DNA of 52,735 nt, taken from sequence record PZ662386.1, one strand, 5' to 3'. Made by a program: the position numbers and the translations under genes. Below, one piece after another: positions 4,829 through 25,962 of this stretch. Origin of the DNA: a phage. Under the pieces are notes generated by a model. That model did not search any database. It saw only the letters and a list, made by a program, of their open reading frames with translations, and was not told the DNA's origin. Within the stretch, counting starts at the first letter, position 1, and every line of letters begins with the position of its first letter.

Positions 4829-5302
4829 ATGCCAAAGCAAGATTGGTCTATTAATACTGGTGAAGCATATGCAGGTGAACAATATGGCCTGGCTACCACC
4901 AACTCCCAGCGCCTGACTTACGTTGCCGAAGAAGAAATGGCAAACTTTGGTCTGGCTGTTGTTCAGGGCACGGCCTCTAATCAGGTTAAACCTGGTATTG
5001 AAGCAGACGGCACTGTTCTGGGCATCACCATGCGCCAGATTAACATCGAATCTGCTACCCGTCCTGGCGACGGCACTGTTGCTATCAAAGTTGGCTGGCC
5101 TCTGGGCGTTATGCTGTCTGGCCCAATCATGGTCAAACTGGTAACTGCAATCACCGATAAAGACATTGGCGTATCTGCCACTGGTCAATTCGGTGGCGTT
5201 GGTGCTGGCTATACTAAAGCAACCAACCTGACTGCCCTGCGTTATCCGGCTGCTGCTGGTGATGTTGTTCCAGTCATGATTAACGTAGTCCCAAAGCCGT
5301 AA
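4829..5302 (+). CDS. head decoration protein (putative, lambda gpD position)
   Basis: 157-aa ORF immediately upstream of major capsid gene, strong RBS AAGGTAAG, highly biased codon usage. Confidence 0.45.
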   Translation: MPKQDWSINTGEAYAGEQYGLATTNSQRLTYVAEEEMANFGLAVVQGTASNQVKPGIEADGTVLGITMRQINIESATRPGDGTVAIKVGWPLGVMLSGPIMVKLVTAITDKDIGVSATGQFGGVGAGYTKATNLTALRYPAAAGDVVPVMINVVPKP

Positions 5303-5595
5303 CGCCACCTCCAGCTCCTACGGTGTCTGCTGTAGCAGGGACTGTAACTGCGGACGCATCTGCCTCTGATGCCACTGTAACTGTGGACAAGCTATTTAAG
5401 TTTGAGAACTCCGCAGCAACAGATTACAACTTCGCCGTTACTCCTGCTGTAGCTGGTGTTTCTGTGGCGGCAAACGGCACTGTGACTGTACTCAATGCAA
5501 CGACTACAGCCACTTCTGCGACAATCAAGGCAACAAATAAAACAGCATCTGGCGTAACTGCAACCAAAGAAATTACCATTACGCCGAAGGCTTAA
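5284..5595 (+). CDS. Ig-like (Big_2-like) C-terminal extension reachable by -1 frameshift from decoration gene
   Basis: -1 frame opens right after a stop at 5281-5283; slippery heptamer C_CCA_AAG at 5290-5296; Pro-rich linker TPPPAPT then Thr/Val/Ala-rich Ig-like sequence. Confidence 0.45.
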   Translation, partial: RSPKAVTPPPAPTVSAVAGTVTADASASDATVTVDKLFKFENSAATDYNFAVTPAVAGVSVAANGTVTVLNATTTATSATIKATNKTASGVTATKEITITPKA

Positions 5596-7894: not shown

Positions 7895-8403
7895 TTTATG
7901 ATGAAGATATTCAGGCGATGAAGGATATTGTGGACGTCTGTGTTGGCGTCCCACGCTTCTCTTATGAGATGCAGATAAACGCACCTCGACCATCTGATAA
8001 CTATGCCGCAATAAAATGTGTGTCGTCAGTTAATCCAGGCTTTGATGAAACTCGAATCGAAGTACGCGATGGTGAGGAGGTATTTGTTACGAGAGGGATT
8101 CGAATCTTAACTTTCTATATTCTCTTCTCACGTCGTGGGAGTGAATATGTTAAGTTTGATAATTCCTTCTTCCGTCCAGATGTTCAGGCCATGCTTAAGA
8201 GCAAAGGCTTTGCGACACTTGACAAAAATCCACTGAATCTTGCCTCGTTAACTCTTGAGACGAATTGGGAATTCCGAGAAGGAATCCAAATCAAATTCAA
8301 TGTTCTACGTGAAGACGTAATGAGCATTGGAACAATGTCTGACGCCAGTGTTGGCGGCAAATTCTACGACGGTGGTGAACCCATCCTAATTAAGGGAATC
8401 TAA
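7891..8403 (+). CDS. neck / tail completion protein (putative)
   Basis: 170-aa ORF with RBS AAGGAG, immediately before sheath gene. Confidence 0.4.
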   Translation: MIYDEDIQAMKDIVDVCVGVPRFSYEMQINAPRPSDNYAAIKCVSSVNPGFDETRIEVRDGEEVFVTRGIRILTFYILFSRRGSEYVKFDNSFFRPDVQAMLKSKGFATLDKNPLNLASLTLETNWEFREGIQIKFNVLREDVMSIGTMSDASVGGKFYDGGEPILIKGI

Positions 8404-9852
8404 ATGGCAATTCCAATTTCCGACATCATCCAGGTCAACATTGCGGTAAGTCCTAACGCTGTTGCCGTGGAAGGTTTTGGTCCTCTTCTGTTTCTGAGCA
8501 AGGAGTTTACTCCAGCCCCAGGCGAAGCTGTTCCTGTTCGTCAATATACCAGCATGGCTGCTGTATCTGCTGATTTCCCATCTGGTGAAATTTATCAAGC
8601 TGCTCTGGCATGGTATTCTCAGAAACCAACTCCAAAGTATTTCCTCGTAGGTGCTATCACCCATGAAGATGTTACTCTGGCAACTCCTGGTACTGTAACC
8701 GCATCTTCTGCTGCGACTCTGGAAACCATTACTGCGTTAACTAATGGTGTTCTGTCTATCAATATTAACGGCGTTGATAAGTCTACTGCACCAATCAACT
8801 TCTCGTCCGCAGACGATTTTGCTGCTGCTGCATCAATGCTTAATGCTGCATTTGTTGCTGCCGACATTCCTGCAACTGTTACGCAGACCACAGGCACTTT
8901 CAAAATCACTACCAACGAAACTGGCGTAAATTCCATCATTGGTAACGTGTACGGTTCTGCTGCTGCGGCATTTAAACTTGACTCTGCTTCAAGCCCTGTG
9001 CATGTTCAAGGTACTGATGAAGTATCTATCGGCACCGACTTGAATGCAATCTTGAACTCTACGTTCGACTTCTTCTTTGTTGCTATTGACCGCAAATACC
9101 GTGGCAGTGCTGAGGGTAATAACCAGATGACTGTTGCCAAGTGGGCAGAAGCAAACGGCAAAGTATTTGGTTGGGCTGATAGCGACCCGCAGATTCTGGT
9201 TCCTGGTGCTGAATCTAGCTTTAAGCGTGCCAAAGAGCAGAACCTCCAACGCACTCTGTTGGTGTATGATGCGTCTGATAATGGCGACGAGTATCCAGAA
9301 GTTTCTATCCTGGGTCGTGCATCGACCGTCAACTTCAACGTTGCAAACTCTTCGCTCGTTCTGGCATTTAAACAAGGTCCAGCTATCAAGACTGCTGACT
9401 TGTCCCCGAACCAGCTTGCTGCACTTGAGCGTGTGAACGGTAACGCATTCATCAACGTTGGCGGGAACACTATGTTCTACAACGGCAAGATGGCTGACGG
9501 CACTTGGTTCGATACCGTGCAGGGCGTTTCTTGGTTAACCTCCAAGATTCGTGCTAACGTGTTCAACCTGTTCTACACCTCCACTACCAAGATTCCTTGG
9601 ACGGACACTGGTGTTGCACTGGTGAACCAGCAAGTAACCCTGGCTCTGGAACTGGCAGTGACAAATGGTCTGATTGCCCCAGGTTACGACAATGAAGGCA
9701 ACTTCTATCCAGATGGCTACAAAGTCTTGTCTACCGACTTGGCTCTGATGCAATCTCAGAAAGGTGCTCGTATCTGGGAAGGCACTTCCTTCATTGCAAT
9801 TGGCTCTGGCGCATTGCAGGGTGCAGTTATCTCTGGCAACTTCGTTCAGTAA
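8404..9852 (+). CDS. tail sheath protein
   Basis: 482-aa ORF followed by 151-aa tube gene and frameshifted chaperone; size and order typical of contractile tails. Confidence 0.65.
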   Translation: MAIPISDIIQVNIAVSPNAVAVEGFGPLLFLSKEFTPAPGEAVPVRQYTSMAAVSADFPSGEIYQAALAWYSQKPTPKYFLVGAITHEDVTLATPGTVTASSAATLETITALTNGVLSININGVDKSTAPINFSSADDFAAAASMLNAAFVAADIPATVTQTTGTFKITTNETGVNSIIGNVYGSAAAAFKLDSASSPVHVQGTDEVSIGTDLNAILNSTFDFFFVAIDRKYRGSAEGNNQMTVAKWAEANGKVFGWADSDPQILVPGAESSFKRAKEQNLQRTLLVYDASDNGDEYPEVSILGRASTVNFNVANSSLVLAFKQGPAIKTADLSPNQLAALERVNGNAFINVGGNTMFYNGKMADGTWFDTVQGVSWLTSKIRANVFNLFYTSTTKIPWTDTGVALVNQQVTLALELAVTNGLIAPGYDNEGNFYPDGYKVLSTDLALMQSQKGARIWEGTSFIAIGSGALQGAVISGNFVQ

Positions 9853-9862
9853 GGTGCGATAA

Positions 9863-10318
9863 GTGAAACAATATTCTTTCTATAATACCGACCTCATTAT
9901 CGACGGTGCTCGTGTAGATGGTTTTACCTCTGGTAACTCTATCATCACTGCTCGTCGTAACGCACCTCAACACCTGCCTGTTATTGACGCGTATGGTAAG
10001 TTGGCTGTAGCTACTACGGCTGACTTATCTGGTACTATTACCTTCCCGCTTCTGCAAACCGCAGACTGGAACGAAATCCTGTACAGCCGTGCTCAGTTAT
10101 CTCAGGCAACTGGTCTGTCTGGCAACAAATCTCTGTGGCAACCGCTCCAGATTCAGATTGTTGACAAGATGGGTGATGTGCTGGTCAACGGTGTAAACGG
10201 CGCTATCTTGCAGCAACCTGCAATTCAGCGTGGTGTGTCCTTCACGTCTAACGTGTGGTCTATCTTTGTAGAGCGCCTCCAGATTAAGACTGGCTCTTAT
10301 CCGGAAATTGGCGTTTAA
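9863..10318 (+). CDS. tail tube protein
   Basis: 151-aa ORF after sheath, GTG start with AAGGTG RBS. Confidence 0.6.
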   Translation: MKQYSFYNTDLIIDGARVDGFTSGNSIITARRNAPQHLPVIDAYGKLAVATTADLSGTITFPLLQTADWNEILYSRAQLSQATGLSGNKSLWQPLQIQIVDKMGDVLVNGVNGAILQQPAIQRGVSFTSNVWSIFVERLQIKTGSYPEIGV

Positions 10319-10329
10319 TTGGAGTAAGT

Positions 10330-10788
10330 ATGGCTTGTGAATTGCTTCAACGTGAATTCACAAACTCCAAAGGCGAAACAGTGTTAGTCGTTGTTCGACA
10401 ATTGTCGGCTTCGGCTGCACTGTCTCTTCACGCGGAGTTGGTAAGCAAGTTAGGCTCACGAGTATTTCCATTCATCGAAGGTAAATATAACTTCGCTGAT
10501 ATTATATACTTGATGCAGCAAGTAGAGCATACCGTATTCACAGAGTTGTTTAAGCGTGTTATCAGCATGCACTCGTCCATAGATGGACAAGAAATCAAAC
10601 CTGCATTATATGATATGCAGTTTAATGGCGAATTGATGTTGTCTTGCCATGTCTTTGCTTTCGTGCTCGAAGCAAACTTCCTTGATTTTTTCAAGCAAGG
10701 GCTCGAAATCAACGAACAGAGACGATTGGAGGCGGAGGAAGCATCCAAGCTGGCAGAGCAGAAGAATTCGAGTCCGGAGACAGTTTAG
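10330..10788 (+). CDS. tail assembly chaperone (short form)
   Basis: 152-aa ORF between tube and tape measure; contains slippery TTTTTTC. Confidence 0.6.
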   Translation: MACELLQREFTNSKGETVLVVVRQLSASAALSLHAELVSKLGSRVFPFIEGKYNFADIIYLMQQVEHTVFTELFKRVISMHSSIDGQEIKPALYDMQFNGELMLSCHVFAFVLEANFLDFFKQGLEINEQRRLEAEEASKLAEQKNSSPETV

Positions 10789-10964
10789 TATCCCTGTTCC
10801 CCGACATAAAATATTTTCTGCATCGTCCTATAATCGAAGACAGTTCTCTCTGCAAGTTACGTGAATTGCAAGATGGAACCTATTCGATTATGGACTTATT
10901 GCTATTCCACGACATTCTCGATTTGCGTAAGAAACTCGAACCAGTAGATGAAGACAATGGCTAA
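10686..10964 (+). CDS. tail assembly chaperone -1 frameshift extension (long form)
   Basis: -1 frame is open from the slippery heptamer T_TTT_TTC (10686-10692), directly after a -1-frame stop (10683-10685), to 10964, overlapping the tape-measure start. Confidence 0.5.
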   Translation, partial: FFQARARNQRTETIGGGGSIQAGRAEEFESGDSLVSLFPDIKYFLHRPIIEDSSLCKLRELQDGTYSIMDLLLFHDILDLRKKLEPVDEDNG

Positions 10965-13900
10965 TCAAAAAGATTTAATGAAGTTGGGCGTTAATGAATT
11001 AATTGCATTAGGCTCTCAAAGCGGTCTGACTTTCCATGCTGGTATGAAGAAGTCGCACATGGTTCAACAACTTAGTGCGAGCGCTGCTTCGGGATGGCTG
11101 GATACAAATGCAGAATTAATGGGTGGGTCATTTGAAGATGACAGTTTAATTACTGAATCTTTGGGTGACTCTTCCATGATTTCAGACGCTGCCCACATTG
11201 CACAAGTGCTTTCAAGTGCTGGCTACACAGAAGCATTTCATGCAGCAATGAATGGCCCATCACACCATGTAGAAGCTGTTCACGCATACATGGAAAGGCT
11301 TGGCGTTAGCACAGATGATGTGTGGATGCACATGCCAAAGCCAAATCCGAACCTGCCGCAAGGTAGCTTCAACATGCTTAATGCCTATATGCGAGATACT
11401 TTGCAAGGGCATCAAGATATTATGCCAGAAATCCCAGGTCATTATGCTGGTGATATTATGGCTGAATACTCCACCAACCGTGGAAACATTGCTGACTCCT
11501 ACAACTACATGGCTCACATGTATGTTGACCGTGAGCAATACAGCAATCATGAACAATACGCAAGAGACATTAGTCGAGTTGCCAAACGTCTGGAACGAGA
11601 GTTACCCTCAGCCTTTAAGGAAGTTGGGTATACATCCGCATCTAATGTAGGAAATAAATCGGCCCCACATATTTCTTACATGGATACACTCCCTCAAATT
11701 GGTTCTCCTTCAATTGTTTCCGGCATTGCACATCCTCGTGCACCTCTTAACGCATCTGGACTTCCTCTTGGTTCTTATGGTTCTGGCATAAATCCAGAAT
11801 ACTCCCTCACTGCATCACTAACTGGTGGCACAGGTTGGAGCGAACCAAGCAAGGCTTTGTATTCTTCTATTAGTGAAGCTGTTAAATCTGCTGCCAAAGT
11901 CTATTCTGGCCCCAAAGGGATGCTGAATACTCGTCACGAAGTATCTGACCGTGACATGATTATGGATAGTGCAACACGCTACACGGATTTGGAAGAAGCC
12001 CGAAGCGGATACGAAAACCTTCGTTCTGAACTTGCAGATGAGCCAGCTTATTCTGCATCAAGTGTTCGAGCTATTCTCGAAAACACTTACGATAAAATGG
12101 ATGCCGAACCTATCAGCATTCCGAAGATGAAGGGAGCTTCACAGCGAGTCGATAAAGATTCGCGGTCAACATCTACAGATTTTACAGCACAACTTGGAGA
12201 GGCCACCAATTGGAACTCTGCAAGAATGCGTCGCGAGGAACTTGCGATTGCAAATATGGATAGTGCTGGATTCCGTGATGTATCAGACTATGGTACAGGA
12301 CGTTCCGAGTCCCCCGTCCGATTCCATGACTTAGAACAGGGTAGCCAAGAGTGGCTGGACTTCCGTAAAAATTATGACATAACTGGCTCAACTGTTGGAA
12401 CCTTCTTAGGAAACAACCCTTACACCCGACCTTGGGCTGGGATGATTGATAAGATTGGTCTATCTCGTAGTAAGGAGCACAGCGATTTCACCAAAAAGAT
12501 GTTCGCTGATGGTCACAGGACGGAAGAAGAAGCACGCGCTCGTGTTGGTAAGGAATTTGGATTCGATATCAAACAAACTGGCGCTATAACAAATGACAAC
12601 TATCCCGCCTTCATGTATTCTCCTGATGGTCTTATTGGGGATGATGCCATTTGGGAGCACAAGAATCCGCAAAGGGCTGGTAAGTTTGCTGACCTTCTTA
12701 AAGGCGACCATCCAGACTACATGGACCAAATTCAATTTGGTTTGCACGTTTCTGGTCGTTCTCGTGCTTTGTTCTCACAAACCATCAACGACGAAACACG
12801 TTCACAATGGATTGAGAAGGACGAAGGATGGTACGAAAGAAACCGAAATCGCCTTGATTCTGTGCTTGGCCGTCTTGATGCTGGGCGAGAGTTTGTTAGA
12901 AACAATGCTGGATTAGAACGAGAAGAGCTAATTGCTGGTGCAAGAAGTGCAATGACTGGTGATGGAATCTGGAAAGATATTCGTCAAAGGTCTACTCGTG
13001 GTTATTCTGCTGCTGCGGGTACTCCAGAAGACCCGTTTATTGGTTCACGTTCTTCGTACAATCCGACACCATCTTACTCCGACTACCAACCAAACTTTGT
13101 AATGCACGAGCAAAACTTTCCTGCAACCACTGGAAATGGTGACACCGGAAATGACTCGATGGCATTGTCTGTTAAGAAGGGTATTCTTGCTGCTCAGGAA
13201 GAAAACAGGCAGAAGGGTATTGGTGCAGATGCAGACTTTGATGGCAAAGCCGATTCAATGGGCTGGAACCGTGAAAGATTTGATGCTGCCAATGGCGGTG
13301 GATATTCTGGAGGTGGTGGTGGTGGTCGTGGCGGCAACTTCACAAGTGGTGGCAACTACTACGATGACTACGGTCGCATGGGTGGTTCGTTAGCTGCTGG
13401 CATTGCTGGTGGCAGTATTGGTTCAGCAACCAACGGAGTTATGCAAGCATTGATGGCAACTCCTGCTGGACGTATGGCTGCTGTAGGCATTGGTGCTATT
13501 CAGATTGGCAATGAAGCTGCTGAATACATGAATGACTTTATCGGCAACTCGCTTGATGCTGGTGTGATAAATCCTAATGAATACTCCTCTATGTCGCAAG
13601 GCTTGGAGATGTTGGGACTCAACTCACAACAAGCGGCACGTCTGAATCAAACCACACATAGTGCCTACAACACCATGCTTAACGGCGACCCCAGCGCCGC
13701 TGTGAACATCGTTCGCGGCAGTAGGGGATTGCTCACCATAGGTGATATTCGTGCGACAGGCGGCGACCCTGTGGCCCTGGCTCGCATCATGCAGGAAAGG
13801 GGCAAGGAGCGTGGCTGGAGTCAGGCCCGTATCGCAGGTGCTGCCGAAATGGCTGGCCTACAGGGTATGGCGAGAGCATACGACCGCACGGAATACAGCC

Positions 13901-14676
13901 ATGAGCAAGCTGGCTCGGTGGTAGAAGCGGGTAGAAACTCCGACTTTGCCGAAGGTATGGCCCAATCGGAAATGTTGCAGGGAAGCCGCGCACGGATGCT
14001 GCCGAGCTATAACGTGCCACAAAGTGTCTTATCTAATGGTGCTCCAATCTTCGAAGCTGGAAGTGCTGCACTTGACGGTGCTCGTACTGGATACAATCAG
14101 GCTCGTGAATTTGCTGGAAGTGTTTATGACTTTATCGCTCAGGAAGAATCCGGTGGTCGTGAATACAACAAGGATGGTTCTCGTGTAATAAGTCGCACTG
14201 GTGCTCGTGGGATAATGCAGATTCTACCTTCGACTGCCCGTGACCCAGGATTTGGAATCAGGCCGTCTGATGGAACTCCGGAAGATGATGCACGAGTTGG
14301 TCGTGAATACTATGACGCAATGTACAAGCGTTATGGCGACCACGAGAAGGCAATGGCTGCTTACACCGATGGTCCTGGCACTGTTGACAAAGCTGTTGAT
14401 AAGAATGGGTTGGATTGGCTTACTGCTGTTCCTGCACAGGCACAGAATCGCGTCAAAGCATTCCGTGAATGGTCCAAGTCTTCTAAATCTTTGGAAGAAG
14501 GTGCTACAGGGTTTACTCGCAATGGAATGTCATACGGTCAAACCCAAACTGTTGTTAATGTTAAGATTGATGCTAAGGTCAACAACCAGACTGCTTCTGC
14601 TACAGTTGCAATTCCTGGTGGTCAGACTGTGACTCAACAAATGAACATGAACAACGGTGCGCAACAAAGACGTTAA
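10948..14676 (+). CDS. tape-measure-position protein with lambda-exonuclease/YqaJ-like nuclease domain and C-terminal SLT lytic transglycosylase domain
   Basis: Follows the frameshifted chaperone; motifs QGSQEWLDFRKNYDITGS and SPDGLIGDDAIWEHKNP (lambda exo type), Gly-rich linker, SLT-like EESGG...GARGIMQI; Rho_N-like N-terminus. Confidence 0.7.
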   Translation: MKTMANQKDLMKLGVNELIALGSQSGLTFHAGMKKSHMVQQLSASAASGWLDTNAELMGGSFEDDSLITESLGDSSMISDAAHIAQVLSSAGYTEAFHAAMNGPSHHVEAVHAYMERLGVSTDDVWMHMPKPNPNLPQGSFNMLNAYMRDTLQGHQDIMPEIPGHYAGDIMAEYSTNRGNIADSYNYMAHMYVDREQYSNHEQYARDISRVAKRLERELPSAFKEVGYTSASNVGNKSAPHISYMDTLPQIGSPSIVSGIAHPRAPLNASGLPLGSYGSGINPEYSLTASLTGGTGWSEPSKALYSSISEAVKSAAKVYSGPKGMLNTRHEVSDRDMIMDSATRYTDLEEARSGYENLRSELADEPAYSASSVRAILENTYDKMDAEPISIPKMKGASQRVDKDSRSTSTDFTAQLGEATNWNSARMRREELAIANMDSAGFRDVSDYGTGRSESPVRFHDLEQGSQEWLDFRKNYDITGSTVGTFLGNNPYTRPWAGMIDKIGLSRSKEHSDFTKKMFADGHRTEEEARARVGKEFGFDIKQTGAITNDNYPAFMYSPDGLIGDDAIWEHKNPQRAGKFADLLKGDHPDYMDQIQFGLHVSGRSRALFSQTINDETRSQWIEKDEGWYERNRNRLDSVLGRLDAGREFVRNNAGLEREELIAGARSAMTGDGIWKDIRQRSTRGYSAAAGTPEDPFIGSRSSYNPTPSYSDYQPNFVMHEQNFPATTGNGDTGNDSMALSVKKGILAAQEENRQKGIGADADFDGKADSMGWNRERFDAANGGGYSGGGGGGRGGNFTSGGNYYDDYGRMGGSLAAGIAGGSIGSATNGVMQALMATPAGRMAAVGIGAIQIGNEAAEYMNDFIGNSLDAGVINPNEYSSMSQGLEMLGLNSQQAARLNQTTHSAYNTMLNGDPSAAVNIVRGSRGLLTIGDIRATGGDPVALARIMQERGKERGWSQARIAGAAEMAGLQGMARAYDRTEYSHEQAGSVVEAGRNSDFAEGMAQSEMLQGSRARMLPSYNVPQSVLSNGAPIFEAGSAALDGARTGYNQAREFAGSVYDFIAQEESGGREYNKDGSRVISRTGARGIMQILPSTARDPGFGIRPSDGTPEDDARVGREYYDAMYKRYGDHEKAMAAYTDGPGTVDKAVDKNGLDWLTAVPAQAQNRVKAFREWSKSSKSLEEGATGFTRNGMSYGQTQTVVNVKIDAKVNNQTASATVAIPGGQTVTQQMNMNNGAQQRR

Positions 14677-14681
14677 TGAGT

Positions 14682-14697
14682 TGGGGAGAAATCCCCA
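14682..14697 (+). other. stem-loop with GAAA tetraloop after tape-measure gene
   Basis: TGGGGA GAAA TCCCCA perfect hairpin. Confidence 0.3.
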
Positions 14698-14707
14698 GCT
14701 TACTTTA

Positions 14708-14725
14708 ACATTAGTTGAATATGTA
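14708..14725 (+). promoter_or_regulatory. degenerate copy of the conserved promoter-like motif
   Basis: ACATTAGTTGaATaTGtA matches the ACATTAGTTGGATGTGAA family in its 5' half; 24 nt upstream of the next gene. Confidence 0.25.
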
Positions 14726-14748
14726 TTAATTTCAATAGGTATATTGCA

Positions 14749-15858
14749 ATGCCGTGGCTACGCAGAGTTGAGGTAATAGTTTCACGTAAAGAAGACCCAA
14801 GCATTCGAACAATATTTAAATCACATCGTATTGATTTTGAAGTTCGTTCTACTGTTGGGTGGCCCGCCGATACAGCAAACATAACTCTGTTTAACTTGTC
14901 ATTAGAAGAAGTTAAGTTCCTCCAGGACAAGACCTACGGAGATATGTATATTGAAATTCGTGCAGGGTATGCAGAAGATGAGCGTTCGGACTCTGGTGGT
15001 GGAACCTCTAGTGGCGGTGTTAAGAAGTTTGGTCAAAAGGCCGAACAGAGCGACCGCGTAACAGTGTCTACATCACTACCAACCATCTTCTCTGGGATTA
15101 TTACAAACGCAGTTGGCTACAGAAAGCCTCCTGAACATGTAACACAATTGTTTTGTATTTCCAAGGCATATGGTGCATCCACTGATTTCAAACAGTTGAC
15201 TGCAATCAAGCCTGGAACCAAGCTCATTGATGCAATGCGCTCAATGTGTTCTGACTATGGATTCAATACCATCTCCACATTTGGTGTTGAAGATTCGGTC
15301 CTTGAAACAGTGATGCCTCGTGGGCGTGTGTTCCATGACACATTCTTAAACGAATTTCGTAACATGCTTGGCGAATACAATTTGTTGTACACTGTTACAA
15401 CTGGTGAAGTGCAAATCTTCCCAGATACCTTTGGTGATAAAGATGCTGTAAACAGAATGTCTAAAGACAGAGAGCCAGTCCAGCTGGATGAAGACTCTGT
15501 TATTGGCAACCCTGTTGCTGGAATCTGCACCTACACTTTAAATACATTCCTAAACCCATCTTTCCAACCAGGTATGATTCTTGATGTATCTCCTTTGCTC
15601 GGTAAGAAGTTGCTTGCTAACGGTGTAACTTCTGTCAATGGTGAAGGTATTGTTCTTAACACTGACCAGTCTGTATTCCGTTGGGCTGTGGAAGACAAAT
15701 ACTTCATCATGGAAGTTGTGCATAGAGGTTCAACTCACACAACCATTTATCAAACATCAATCACTGCAATCTTGGGTGGCAACACAATGATGGGTGGTAA
15801 GGAAGCTGCGTGGCAGGAAATGTATGCTAACAGTGGAATGGCAATGGAGTCATTTTAA
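14749..15858 (+). CDS. baseplate / tail protein (putative)
   Basis: 369-aa ORF directly after tape measure; Gly-rich segment; call by position. Confidence 0.45.
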   Translation: MPWLRRVEVIVSRKEDPSIRTIFKSHRIDFEVRSTVGWPADTANITLFNLSLEEVKFLQDKTYGDMYIEIRAGYAEDERSDSGGGTSSGGVKKFGQKAEQSDRVTVSTSLPTIFSGIITNAVGYRKPPEHVTQLFCISKAYGASTDFKQLTAIKPGTKLIDAMRSMCSDYGFNTISTFGVEDSVLETVMPRGRVFHDTFLNEFRNMLGEYNLLYTVTTGEVQIFPDTFGDKDAVNRMSKDREPVQLDEDSVIGNPVAGICTYTLNTFLNPSFQPGMILDVSPLLGKKLLANGVTSVNGEGIVLNTDQSVFRWAVEDKYFIMEVVHRGSTHTTIYQTSITAILGGNTMMGGKEAAWQEMYANSGMAMESF

Positions 15859-25871: not shown

Positions 25872-25962
25872 CGCCGAAATTTGTTCGAACAGTTGTCTGA
25901 CTATGAAATAATTTTTTTTTTATAATTTTTTTTTTTATTTTCAATATTGCTACAGAATTAAT

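What the first reader, a model, noticed from the sequence alone, without database searches (positions are those of the whole stretch)
10686..10964. Canonical -1 frameshift in the tail assembly chaperone (slippery T_TTT_TTC)
The -1 frame is closed by a stop at 10683-10685 and then open from the heptamer TTTTTTC (10686-10692) to 10964, overlapping the tape-measure start. This is the classic chaperone short/long-form arrangement. The +1-frame ORF in the six-frame track (10649-10864) is therefore probably spurious. The frameshift also supports the tape-measure assignment of the nuclease-bearing protein.
Basis: seen in the sequence. Interest (0 to 1): 0.45.

Follow-up and report, generated by a model that had tools for sequence, protein, structure and literature searches.

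The report
Tail chaperone -1 frameshift, conserved family-wide
The tail-assembly chaperone gene of this GJ1-like (Chaseviridae) E. coli phage carries the classic "slippery" T_TTT_TTC site, which most likely lets a fraction of ribosomes slip back one base and make a longer 211-aa chaperone; this is an ordinary, well-known phage trick that is simply not annotated in the database records I checked for this family.

Summary
The chaperone ORF 10330-10788 reads ..GAT TTT TTC AAG.., so T_TTT_TTC (10686-10692) is in the phase needed for a -1 slip. The -1 frame has a TGA at 10683-85 and then stays open to TAA 10962-64, overlapping the tape-measure start. The predicted fusion is 211 aa.

The window is a Carltongylesvirus-type phage. 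Across about 45 related loci in both Chaseviridae subfamilies:
- The in-phase heptamer is kept, with two variants: G_TTT_TTC in Faunus and T_TTT_TTT in one spring-water myovirus.
- The -1 frame stays open for 80-125 codons.
- It encodes a conserved ~50-aa domain (Pfam DUF6889, phrog_4364) with third-position-biased substitutions.
- Almost none have a start codon upstream of that domain.
- The +1 ORF decays to 2-47 codons outside the Escherichia/Yersinia-type group.

Other Phe codons in the gene switch freely between TTT and TTC. The two in the heptamer do not. TTTTTTC occurs once in the window against about 18 expected. One metagenomic protein carries both domains in a single frame.

No conserved stimulatory RNA structure was found. 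No database record joins the two ORFs, and I found no paper describing this for Chaseviridae.

Verdict: real and mechanistically ordinary, a new member of the lambda G/GT kind. In passing, a second conserved candidate frameshift (C_CCA_AAG, 5290-5296) appends an Ig-like domain to a head-associated protein.

The parts
10330..10788 (+). Tail assembly chaperone, short (zero-frame) form, the 'G' analogue: 152 aa, 17.3 kDa, stop TAG 10786-88
10683..10685 (+). TGA stop in the -1 frame directly before the heptamer. It sets the 5' limit of the permitted shift window in this genome. It is not conserved in relatives, so it is incidental.
   Evidence: In 4HA13, PP101, Y2 and others the -1 frame opens 1-22 codons further upstream.
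10686..10692 (+). Slippery heptamer T_TTT_TTC (zero-frame codons Phe120 TTT and Phe121 TTC). Proposed site of tandem -1 slippage of two tRNA-Phe.
   Evidence: In phase. Only copy in the window, against 18.5 expected. In-phase copy in all related loci except G_TTT_TTC in Faunus and T_TTT_TTT in ctfzr933. Codon use is TTT 28/28 and TTC 27/28 here, while other conserved Phe columns mix both codons.
10692..10964 (+). -1-frame extension, the 'T' analogue: 90 codons plus TAA 10962-64. The GT product is 10330-10692 joined to 10692-10964, with C10692 read twice (211 aa, 23.9 kDa).
   Evidence: Translation. The protein sequence is conserved across genera. tblastn finds it in 110 phage records, often where nothing is annotated. 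No ATG, GTG or TTG lies upstream of the conserved domain.
10728..10739 (+). GGA GGC GGA GGA: the Gly4 motif of the -1 frame, inside the region where the two frames overlap
   Evidence: The G positions are invariant while the -1-frame third positions vary among 20 Cleopatravirinae sequences. Those changes alter the zero-frame amino acids, so the -1 frame is the more constrained one here.
10797..10937 (+). Conserved C-terminal domain of the T part (FPDIKYFLHRPIIEDSSLCKLRELQDGTYSIMDLLLFHDILDLRKKL), lying beyond the zero-frame stop. Corresponds to Pfam DUF6889 and phrog_4364.
   Evidence: phrog_4364 E 4.3e-18. The window's own DUF6889 score is 20.5-21.2 bits, below the 23.9 cut-off, but 12 of 14 relatives match, best E 1.8e-9. 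Substitutions at codon positions 1/2/3 are 506/232/1113. Invariant residues R45, C54, L59, G62, D68, L69, H73, D77.
10699..10775 (+). Possible local hairpin: GGGCUCGAA (10699-10707) paired with UUCGAGUCC (10767-10775), beginning 6 nt after the heptamer. It is NOT supported as a conserved stimulator.
   Evidence: Predicted in the minimum-free-energy fold, but z is only -0.75. Kept in the Escherichia/Yersinia/Pectobacterium group and lost in Loessnervirus, Faunus, Myduc and Nefertitivirinae. 68.3% of cells paired against 66.8% in shuffles, no covariation. RNAalifold predicts no consensus pairs.
10957..14676 (+). Tape-measure-position protein. The conserved start ATG 10957 sits in ATGGCTAA, which overlaps the T stop codon. 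The ORF listing extends the ORF to ATG 10948, which is not conserved.
   Evidence: Mangalitsa lacks the upstream ATG. Pfam YqaJ (residues 468-604) and SLT (1060-1153). phrog_19855.
10649..10864 (+). +1-frame ORF (71 aa): spurious
   Evidence: No PHROG match. The +1 frame is open for only 2-47 codons outside the Escherichia/Yersinia-type group, where it stays at 56-91.

Best explanation
Gene 10330-10788 encodes the tail assembly chaperone of a contractile-tailed Chaseviridae phage. It is decoded in two ways.

Most ribosomes read straight through to TAG 10786-88 and make the 152-aa short form.

A minority shift at T_TTT_TTC (10686-10692). With tRNA-Phe on UUU in the P site and tRNA-Phe on UUC in the A site, both slip one base 5' and re-pair with UUU-UUU. 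Reading then resumes at CAA (10692) in the -1 frame and ends at TAA 10962-64. The product is a 211-aa long form: the first 121 residues of the chaperone fold, then a Gly-rich and acidic linker, then a ~50-aa conserved C-terminal domain (the DUF6889 type).

By analogy with lambda G/GT, the shared N-terminal domain coats the tape-measure protein. The rare C-terminal domain is expected to recruit the tube or sheath subunits, and neither form should end up in the virion.

What is shown and what is inferred:
- Shown here: the sequence anatomy, its family-wide conservation, the coding signature of the -1 frame, and the absence of an independent start.
- Inferred: that the shift is ribosomal, how efficient it is, and what the T domain binds.
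- The heptamer appears to act without a conserved RNA stimulator.
For: **Anatomy**
- Phase, stops and the 211-aa fusion are as described.
- Gene order is sheath (DUF3383), tube, chaperone, tape-measure-position protein.

**Conservation of the site**
- An in-phase T_TTT_TTC is present in 14 of 15 annotated Cleopatravirinae loci.
- It is present in 5 of 5 Nefertitivirinae loci from Aeromonas, Shewanella and Vibrio phages.
- It is present in 28 of 29 IMG/VR loci, down to 36-39% protein identity.
- The exceptions are G_TTT_TTC in Faunus (the single exception in both the first and third sets) and T_TTT_TTT in the unclassified spring-water myovirus ctfzr933.
- Phe120 is TTT in 28/28 and Phe121 is TTC in 27/28 sequences. 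Three other conserved Phe columns use both codons: 14/10, 22/5 and 17/8.

**The -1 frame is coding**
- It is open for 80-117 codons in every locus and always ends at the tape-measure start.
- Substitutions beyond the zero-frame stop fall 506/232/1113 on codon positions 1/2/3.
- The Gly4 codons inside the overlap keep their G positions and vary only at -1-frame third positions.
- Its peptide matches phrog_4364 at E 4.3e-18, and 12 of 14 homologues match Pfam DUF6889.

**No independent expression**
- Almost no relative has ATG, GTG or TTG upstream of the conserved domain. SSEM1 has none in the whole T part.
- The GJ1 annotators had to start their ORF at ATC.

**Bracketing of the shift site**
- In this window the -1 frame opens exactly at the heptamer.
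- In L046-L050 the zero frame stops 11-12 codons after it.
- The shift must therefore occur within about 45 nt that include the heptamer.

**The two domains belong together**
- P0075 (194 aa) has Phage_TAC_15 and DUF6889 in one frame. It lies next to a paralogue with Phage_TAC_15 only.

**The motif is competent**
- In E. coli, U_UU.U_UU.C belongs to the high-efficiency class H_HH.U_UU.Y. It shifts at more than 0.1% without stimulators, and U_UU.C is the second most shift-prone tetramer (PMC4066793).
- The motif is otherwise purged from this genome: 1 copy against 18.5 expected.
Against: - There is no experimental evidence. All 46 database homologues of the fusion are short-form proteins of 135-159 aa, and no GenBank or RefSeq record I looked at joins the ORFs.
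- No conserved stimulatory structure or upstream SD-like element was found, and there is no Rfam match. Efficiency may therefore be low, as it is in lambda.
- Faunus carries G_TTT_TTC, where P-site re-pairing would be imperfect.
- Heptamer conservation is partly confounded. The Asp-Phe-Phe motif is itself conserved protein sequence, and the downstream block is dual-coding.
- The sequence cannot separate ribosomal slippage from insertion of one U by RNA polymerase on the T6 tract.
- The T domain was modelled with low confidence (pLDDT 40-64), and its binding partner is unknown.
Confidence: 0.87

Rival explanations
1. Transcriptional slippage. The RNA polymerase (these phages encode a T7-like enzyme, and the host enzyme is also available) occasionally inserts one extra U while copying the T6 tract. 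Standard translation of that minority mRNA would give exactly the same 211-aa protein.
For: - The site is a homopolymeric T6 run, T7 in ctfzr933.
- No RNA stimulator of ribosomal frameshifting is conserved.
- The predicted protein is identical under both mechanisms, so none of the comparative evidence discriminates between them.
- PMC4066793 notes that U7 and A7 runs are avoided in all frames in E. coli, possibly because of slippage by the polymerase.
Against: - From general knowledge, not tested here: productive transcriptional slippage in bacteria and phages usually needs runs of about 8-9 or more A or T. The tract here is 6, and only 5 in Faunus.
- The 3' C and the exact X_XXY_YYZ phase are conserved: TTC in 27/28 sequences, and T before the first TTT in all but Faunus. 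That matters for tRNA re-pairing and not for polymerase slippage.
- U_UU.U_UU.C is a proven efficient ribosomal shift site in E. coli.
Confidence: 0.07
2. The conserved C-terminal domain is a separate small protein translated from its own internal start. This is how several records annotate it: 31-73-aa 'hypothetical proteins' in GJ1, PM1, PP101, PYps16N, Myduc, PA_03, SppYZU05 and pAh6-C.
For: - Gene callers and annotators call small ORFs in this frame.
- phrog_4364 is a 54-position family built from such ORFs.
- The representative search returns mostly orphan proteins of 35-110 aa.
Against: - The annotated starts are not homologous to each other, and they fall inside or just before the conserved domain.
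- In the window the first ATG, GTG or TTG in the -1 frame is at T residue 59, inside the domain. SSEM1 has none at all. Only two candidate starts have an SD-like sequence upstream (Faunus residue 54, pAh6-C residue 49), and neither precedes the whole conserved domain.
- The GJ1 ORF starts at ATC.
- Conservation of the -1-frame protein begins right at the heptamer (QARARN.. and GGGG), upstream of every candidate start.
- tblastn alignments to Aeromonas phages start at query residues 1-3.
Confidence: 0.03
3. Chance or fossil. The -1 open frame and the heptamer are coincidental or a decayed remnant, and only the 152-aa protein is made.
For: None beyond the lack of experimental data and the lack of annotation in database records.
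Against: - The frame is open in about 45 loci spanning two subfamilies, against P of about 0.004 for a single sequence.
- The substitution pattern is that of purifying selection on a coding frame.
- Synonymous sites of the heptamer are frozen.
- A natural in-frame fusion of the two domains exists.
Confidence: 0.02

Closest known systems
Bacteriophage lambda G / GT tail assembly chaperones (Levin et al. 1993; Xu et al. 2004, 2013, 2014, as summarised in PMC5009743)
   Same: - The gene sits directly upstream of the tape-measure gene.
- A short product comes from standard decoding and a longer one from a -1 shift near the 3' end.
- The extension has no start of its own and ends at the tape-measure gene.
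- Lambda, as I recall, also relies essentially on its heptamer, and here no conserved RNA stimulator is detectable.
   Different: - The heptamer is T_TTT_TTC (two tRNA-Phe) rather than G_GGA_AAG (my recollection of the lambda site).
- This is a contractile-tailed phage.
- There is no detectable sequence similarity to lambda G or T. The domains are Pfam Phage_TAC_15 and DUF6889.
- The ratio of products and the partner of the T domain are unknown here.
TAC-N / TAC-NC of Vandenendeviridae (Pakpunavirus, phage Adele) and Andersonviridae myophages (PMC12846349)
   Same: - Myophage chaperone locus in which the downstream piece is routinely annotated as a separate hypothetical protein.
- A -1 frame uninterrupted in all relatives.
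- A conserved poly-T shift motif (GTTTTT), identical to the Faunus variant G_TTT_TTC found here.
- The case there was argued from comparative genomics only, as here.
   Different: - Different phage families.
- I did not test whether their chaperones are homologous to Phage_TAC_15 and DUF6889.
- In Chaseviridae the dominant motif is the full X_XXY_YYZ heptamer T_TTT_TTC.
P2 E / E+E' chaperones of contractile-tailed phages (summarised in PMC5009743; site details from memory)
   Same: Contractile tail. Gene order sheath, tube, chaperone pair, tape measure. A -1 frameshift on a T-rich heptamer (TTTTTTG in P2, from memory).
   Different: No sequence relationship was tested. P2 efficiency is reported as 2- to 3-fold higher than lambda, and nothing is known here.
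Two-gene solution in metagenomic contig L052 (ERZ25070720 ctg115445l)
   Same: The same two domains appear: a 171-aa protein with Phage_TAC_15 only, followed by a 194-aa protein with Phage_TAC_15 plus DUF6889. The motif ..NFGVFF.. sits at the position equivalent to ..NFLDFF...
   Different: Short and long forms are separate, in-frame genes, so no recoding is needed. The next gene is Dit-like rather than a recognisable tape measure.

Membership tests
Programmed -1 frameshift tail assembly chaperone pair (lambda G/GT kind; Xu et al. 2004) | Gene lies between the major tail (tube) gene and the tape-measure gene | tested here: met
   Sheath 8404-9852, tube 9863-10318, chaperone 10330-10788, tape-measure-position protein from 10957. 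Same order in all relatives.
Programmed -1 frameshift tail assembly chaperone pair (lambda G/GT kind; Xu et al. 2004) | A second ORF overlaps the 3' end in the -1 frame, has no initiation signal of its own, and ends near the tape-measure start | tested here: met
   -1 frame open 10686-10964. The first possible start codon is at T residue 59, inside the conserved domain. The stop overlaps the tape-measure ATG.
Programmed -1 frameshift tail assembly chaperone pair (lambda G/GT kind; Xu et al. 2004) | In-phase slippery X_XXY_YYZ sequence within the overlap | tested here: met
   T_TTT_TTC at 10686-10692, the only such heptamer in the gene. It is in the efficient class in E. coli (PMC4066793).
Programmed -1 frameshift tail assembly chaperone pair (lambda G/GT kind; Xu et al. 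2004) | Arrangement conserved among relatives despite sequence divergence | tested here: met
   About 45 loci in two subfamilies plus unclassified contigs. Frozen synonymous sites. Coding signature of the -1 frame.
Programmed -1 frameshift tail assembly chaperone pair (lambda G/GT kind; Xu et al. 2004) | Both products made at a fixed ratio, both needed for tail assembly, neither present in virions; the T part binds the major tail protein | not testable with these tools
   Needs western blot or mass spectrometry, a reporter assay and genetics. I found no proteomic data for this locus in the searchable literature.
Pfam PF21822 Phage_TAC_15 | Score above the gathering cut-off (22 bits) | tested here: met
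   67.1 bits, E 2.9e-18, residues 20-126. All 46 homologues carry PF21822.
Pfam PF21829 DUF6889 | Score above the gathering cut-off (23.9 bits) | tested here: inconclusive
   The window's T part scores 20.5-21.2 bits, just below the cut-off. 12 of 14 aligned homologues match at E <= 0.01, best 1.8e-9. The in-frame fusion P0075 scores 46.8 bits.
Stimulated -1 PRF signals (dnaX / IS3-type: heptamer plus downstream hairpin or pseudoknot and/or upstream SD-like element) | Conserved downstream structure 5-9 nt after the heptamer, or an SD-like element 6-17 nt upstream | tested here: not met
   The local 9-bp stem has z of -0.75 to -1.9 and no covariation: 68.3% paired against 66.8% in shuffles. RNAalifold finds no consensus pairs. 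The upstream sequence GAAGCAAACTTCCTTGA has no SD-like element. No Rfam match.
Programmed transcriptional slippage | Long homopolymeric A/T tract (typically about 8-9 nt or more, from general knowledge), independent of reading phase | tested here: not met
   The tract is T6 here and T5 in Faunus, and the phase and the 3' C are conserved. The mechanism itself cannot be excluded without RNA data.

The most novel reading that the evidence does not exclude
The shift may not be a plain lambda-like, unstimulated ribosomal slip. Two unusual readings remain open.

(a) The long form is made largely by insertion of a U by the phage's own T7-like RNA polymerase on a tract of only six T.

(b) The strongly conserved 24-nt block directly after the heptamer (CAAGGGCTCGAAATGAACGAACAG, columns 11-34 of alignment A3) acts as a non-hairpin stimulator, for example through mRNA-rRNA contacts, rather than being conserved only because it is dual-coding.

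A separate and more modest point is that DUF6889 would be identified as the 'T' domain of the whole Phage_TAC_15 chaperone class. In one lineage the same two forms are encoded as two genes instead of by recoding.
Probability: 0.1. Interest if true: 0.45.

Novelty: new member of a known kind. Interest (0 to 1): 0.25.

Why it matters
The main value is annotation.

- Every GenBank, RefSeq and IMG/VR relative I examined either leaves the 176-nt stretch between chaperone and tape measure empty or fills it with an arbitrary small 'hypothetical protein'. One of these starts at ATC.
- The comparative evidence shows that this stretch is the C-terminal part of a 209-215-aa long chaperone.
- This assigns a role to Pfam DUF6889 and phrog_4364, both listed as function unknown: they are the frameshift-encoded domain of Phage_TAC_15 chaperones.
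- It adds Chaseviridae to the phage groups that use the G/GT strategy.
- It gives independent positional support for calling the unusual protein with nuclease and transglycosylase domains the tape measure.

It does not change how tail assembly or frameshifting is understood.

Tried and rejected
- **Downstream stimulatory RNA.** The stem 10699-10707 / 10767-10775 looked attractive because it has a 6-nt spacer. Its folding z-scores are unremarkable. It is lost outside the close relatives. It shows no covariation, and RNAalifold gives no consensus structure. Rejected as a conserved element.
- **Hairpin enclosing the heptamer.** The CTTGA-T5-TCAAG palindrome appears in the 341-nt fold. The palindrome is not kept outside the close relatives, so I did not pursue it.
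- **Rfam scan of 10300-11100.** Nothing found.
- **Independent initiation of the T part.** Rejected from the start-codon and SD survey.
- **The +1 ORF.** Rejected.
- **Other shift sites.** There is no other in-phase XXXYYYZ heptamer in the gene.
- **Homology search with the fusion protein.** It returned only short-form proteins and no annotated fusion.
- **Sequence search of the T profile against PDB.** No hit.
- **AF2 on the T part.** Low confidence because the alignment had no depth there.
- **Literature searches.** Chaseviridae or GJ1 with frameshift or tail assembly chaperone, and DUF6889, found nothing specific. The Vladimirov et al. 2022 paper on T4-like chaperones is not held.
- **'-1 frame extends past the stop' as a statistic.** Not discriminating in this compact genome.
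Full report
**What the window is.** Megablast of 8400-15000 gives 97.8% identity over the full length to Escherichia phage vB_EcoM_DE15, and 84-97% to ST32, Bp7, flopper, Mangalitsa and other members of Chaseviridae, Cleopatravirinae, Carltongylesvirus. phiEcoM-GJ1 matches 10300-11000 at 99.0%. These are myophages of about 52-55 kb.

The local gene order is:
- tail sheath, 8404-9852 (Pfam DUF3383, E 3e-65)
- tube, 9863-10318
- a 152-aa ORF, 10330-10788
- a 1242-aa protein ending at 14676, with YqaJ-like nuclease and SLT transglycosylase domains

**Check of the observation.** It holds to the base.
- Zero-frame codons are ..CTT GAT TTT TTC AAG.. (L-D-F-F-K), so TTTTTTC at 10686-10692 is in the X_XXY_YYZ phase.
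- The -1 frame reads TGA at 10683-85 and is then open for 92 codons to TAA 10962-64.
- Slipping on the heptamer gives a 211-aa, 23.9-kDa product, against 152 aa and 17.3 kDa for the short form.
- It is the only in-phase XXXYYYZ heptamer in the gene.
- TTTTTTC occurs once on either strand of the whole 52.7-kb window, against 18.5 +/- 4.4 in dinucleotide-preserving shuffles. The motif is strongly avoided everywhere except here.
- A -1 frame that runs past a stop codon is not unusual in this compact genome, because neighbouring genes often sit in that frame (33 of 78 ORFs). I did not rely on that feature.

**Identity of the gene.**
- The 152-aa protein matches Pfam Phage_TAC_15 (67 bits, E 2.9e-18) and phrog_11820 'tail assembly chaperone' (E 2.5e-75).
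- An AlphaFold2 model built on 26 homologues is confident for residues 1-125, with pLDDT above 90.
- Foldseek alone was not significant.

**Comparative test of the frameshift.** I collected three sets of related loci:
- 15 annotated Cleopatravirinae loci: Carltongylesvirus, Sabourvirus, Yersinia PYps phages, Suwonvirus, Loessnervirus, Faunusvirus and Myducvirus
- 5 Nefertitivirinae loci from Aeromonas, Shewanella and Vibrio phages, plus one unclassified spring-water myovirus
- 29 IMG/VR loci, reaching down to 36-39% protein identity

In every one the -1 frame is open for 80-117 codons and ends at or overlapping the start of the next large gene. The heptamer T_TTT_TTC is present in phase at the homologous Phe-Phe position.

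There are two exceptions. Faunus has G_TTT_TTC, which is the GTTTTT motif recently proposed for the chaperones of Vandenendeviridae and Andersonviridae (PMC12846349). Myovirus ctfzr933 has T_TTT_TTT.

The synonymous sites of the heptamer are frozen. Among 28 distinct sequences Phe120 is TTT in 28 and Phe121 is TTC in 27. Three other conserved Phe columns in the same gene use both codons: 14/10, 22/5 and 17/8.

**The -1 frame is translated.**
- The -1 peptide aligns from the first residue after the heptamer (QARARN.RT...GGGG) through a variable acidic linker to a strongly conserved block, YFLHRPxIxxxxLCxLxELxDGxYSxxDLxxFHxILDLRxxL. Eight residues are invariant.
- Beyond the zero-frame stop, where only one frame can be coding, substitutions among Cleopatravirinae fall 506/232/1113 on -1-frame codon positions 1/2/3.
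- Inside the overlap, the four Gly codons (10728-10739) keep all their G positions and vary only at -1-frame third positions. Those changes alter the zero-frame amino acids. The -1 frame is therefore already being read about 35 nt after the heptamer.
- The peptide matches phrog_4364 at E 4.3e-18.
- 12 of 14 homologues match Pfam DUF6889, best E 1.8e-9. The window's own score, 21 bits, is just under the 23.9-bit cut-off.
- tblastn finds the peptide in 110 phage records. In several nothing is annotated under the match.

**The T part has no independent start.** In the window the first ATG, GTG or TTG in the -1 frame is at T residue 59, inside the conserved block. Almost no relative has a start upstream of the block, and SSEM1 has none anywhere in the T part. 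Only two candidate starts follow an SD-like sequence (Faunus residue 54, pAh6-C residue 49), and neither precedes the whole block. The small 'hypothetical proteins' annotated in GJ1, PM1, PP101, PYps16N, Myduc, PA_03, SppYZU05 and pAh6-C start at non-homologous positions. The GJ1 one starts at ATC.

**Position of the shift.** In this window the -1 frame opens exactly at the heptamer. In the most divergent loci (L046-L050) the zero frame ends 11-12 codons after it. Taken together, the shift has to occur within about 45 nt that contain the heptamer and no other slippery motif.

**A natural fusion of the two domains.** An exhaustive HMMER search with the T part returned 31 proteins. Nearly all are orphans of 35-110 aa. 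One, P0075 (194 aa), carries Phage_TAC_15 (residues 9-114) and DUF6889 (153-187) in one reading frame. Its contig encodes a 171-aa paralogue with Phage_TAC_15 only, immediately upstream. That lineage makes a short and a long chaperone from two genes, which shows the two domains belong in one polypeptide.

**Mechanism.** The best-supported mechanism is tandem -1 slippage of two tRNA-Phe from UUU-UUC to UUU-UUU.
- In E. coli, U_UU.U_UU.C falls in the most efficient heptamer class (H_HH.U_UU.Y) and shifts at more than 0.1% without stimulators. U_UU.C is the second most shift-prone tetramer after A_AA.G (PMC4066793). This also makes the Faunus variant plausible.
- I looked for a stimulator and did not find a conserved one.
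- A 9-bp stem (10699-10707 with 10767-10775, spacer 6 nt) is predicted in the window and its close relatives. Its folding z-scores are only -0.5 to -1.9.
- That stem is absent in Loessnervirus, Faunus, Myduc and Nefertitivirinae. Pairing is 68.3% against 66.8% in shuffles, with no covariation.
- RNAalifold predicts no consensus pairs, and Rfam has no match.
- There is no SD-like element upstream.
- The strong nucleotide conservation just after the heptamer is most simply explained by dual coding.

The function of the two forms is inferred from lambda G/GT (PMC5009743) and was not tested. In that model the G domain coats the tape measure, the T domain recruits tail subunits, and both are absent from virions.

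**Rivals.**
- Transcriptional slippage on T6 would give the same protein and cannot be excluded from sequence. The tract is short, only T5 in Faunus, and both the phase and the 3' C are conserved. That fits tRNA re-pairing better (about 0.07).
- An independently initiated small protein (about 0.03) and chance (about 0.02) are contradicted by the start-codon survey and the conservation data.
- The +1 ORF 10649-10864 has no family match. Its frame collapses to 2-47 codons outside the Escherichia/Yersinia-type group, where it stays at 56-91 codons.

**Comparison with what is known, and novelty.** This is the G/GT strategy described for lambda and generalised by Xu et al. 2004. A near-identical comparative argument was published for Pakpunavirus-type myophages.
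- None of the roughly 20 GenBank and RefSeq records I opened joins the two ORFs.
- All 46 database homologues of the fusion are short forms.
- Full-text searches found nothing on a chaperone frameshift in Chaseviridae or on DUF6889.

I file it as a new member of a known kind. It is useful for annotation and unsurprising to a specialist.

**Seen in passing.** A second candidate -1 frameshift lies at C_CCA_AAG (5290-5296), two codons before the stop of a head-associated structural gene (4829-5302, phrog_563). It leads into a Pro/Ala/Thr-rich linker and an Ig-like domain ending at 5595. It is conserved in 4HA13, Faunus, Y2 and Aeromonas phiA050.

Noticed in passing
window 4829-5595 (heptamer 5290-5296): Second candidate -1 frameshift. 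The gene 4829-5302 (157 aa, phrog_563 'virion structural protein') lies between the head protease and the major head protein and ends ..GTC CCA AAG CCG TAA, with an in-phase C_CCA_AAG. The -1 frame continues for 99 codons to 5595. It encodes a Pro/Ala/Thr-rich linker (PKAVTPPPAPTV..) and an Ig-like domain (phrog_13745, E 1.5e-7). Heptamer, phase and an open -1 frame of 101-125 codons are also present in 4HA13, Faunus, Y2 and Aeromonas phiA050, while the +1 frame is open for only 17-26 codons. The ORF that can be called on its own (5323-5595) starts with GTG and has no evident SD. No record joins the two ORFs.
   Followed up: partly
window 10948-10964: The tape-measure ORF as listed starts at ATG 10948. 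That ATG is missing in Mangalitsa and other relatives. The conserved start is ATG 10957, within ATGGCTAA, where the TAA is the stop of the -1-frame chaperone extension. The same ATGGCTAA or TGATG overlap recurs across the family, which may allow translational coupling.
   Followed up: partly
window 10957-14676: The protein in the tape-measure position (1242 aa from ATG 10948, 1239 aa from ATG 10957) carries a YqaJ-like nuclease domain (residues 468-604, E 4e-13) and a C-terminal SLT lytic transglycosylase domain (1060-1153, E 5e-13). Database records call it variously tail fiber, endonuclease, virion structural protein or tape measure. A nuclease domain inside a tape measure is unusual.
   Followed up: no
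L052 3493-5174 (ENA ERZ25070720 ctg115445l): A metagenomic phage contig encodes two adjacent chaperone genes. The first is 171 aa with Phage_TAC_15 only. The second is 194 aa with Phage_TAC_15 plus DUF6889 in a single frame. A Dit-like gene follows directly, with no recognisable tape measure between them. This appears to be a two-gene alternative to the frameshift.
   Followed up: partly
L009 1236-1242 (Erwinia phage Faunus); L018 1435-1441 (Myoviridae sp. ctfzr933): These are the only deviations from T_TTT_TTC: G_TTT_TTC in Faunus, where the preceding codon is GAG, and T_TTT_TTT in the spring-water myovirus. The Faunus form equals the GTTTTT motif reported for Pakpunavirus and Andersonviridae chaperones.
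   Followed up: partly
window 25912-25936: Two long T runs (T10 at 25912 and T11 at 25926) lie a few bases apart. They are the only other T runs of 6 or more in the window, and there are no A runs of 6 or more on this strand.
   Followed up: no
PP952070.1 (hit H35): A record named 'Staphylococcus phage Pel53' (host given as Staphylococcus hyicus) is 96% identical over this chaperone region to these E. coli Chaseviridae phages. The host label looks doubtful.
   Followed up: no
L016 1645-1866 (phiEcoM-GJ1, EF460875.1): The original GJ1 annotation contains a 73-aa 'hypothetical phage protein' in the -1 frame whose first codon is ATC. This shows that the open frame was noticed but no proper start codon could be found.
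   Followed up: yes
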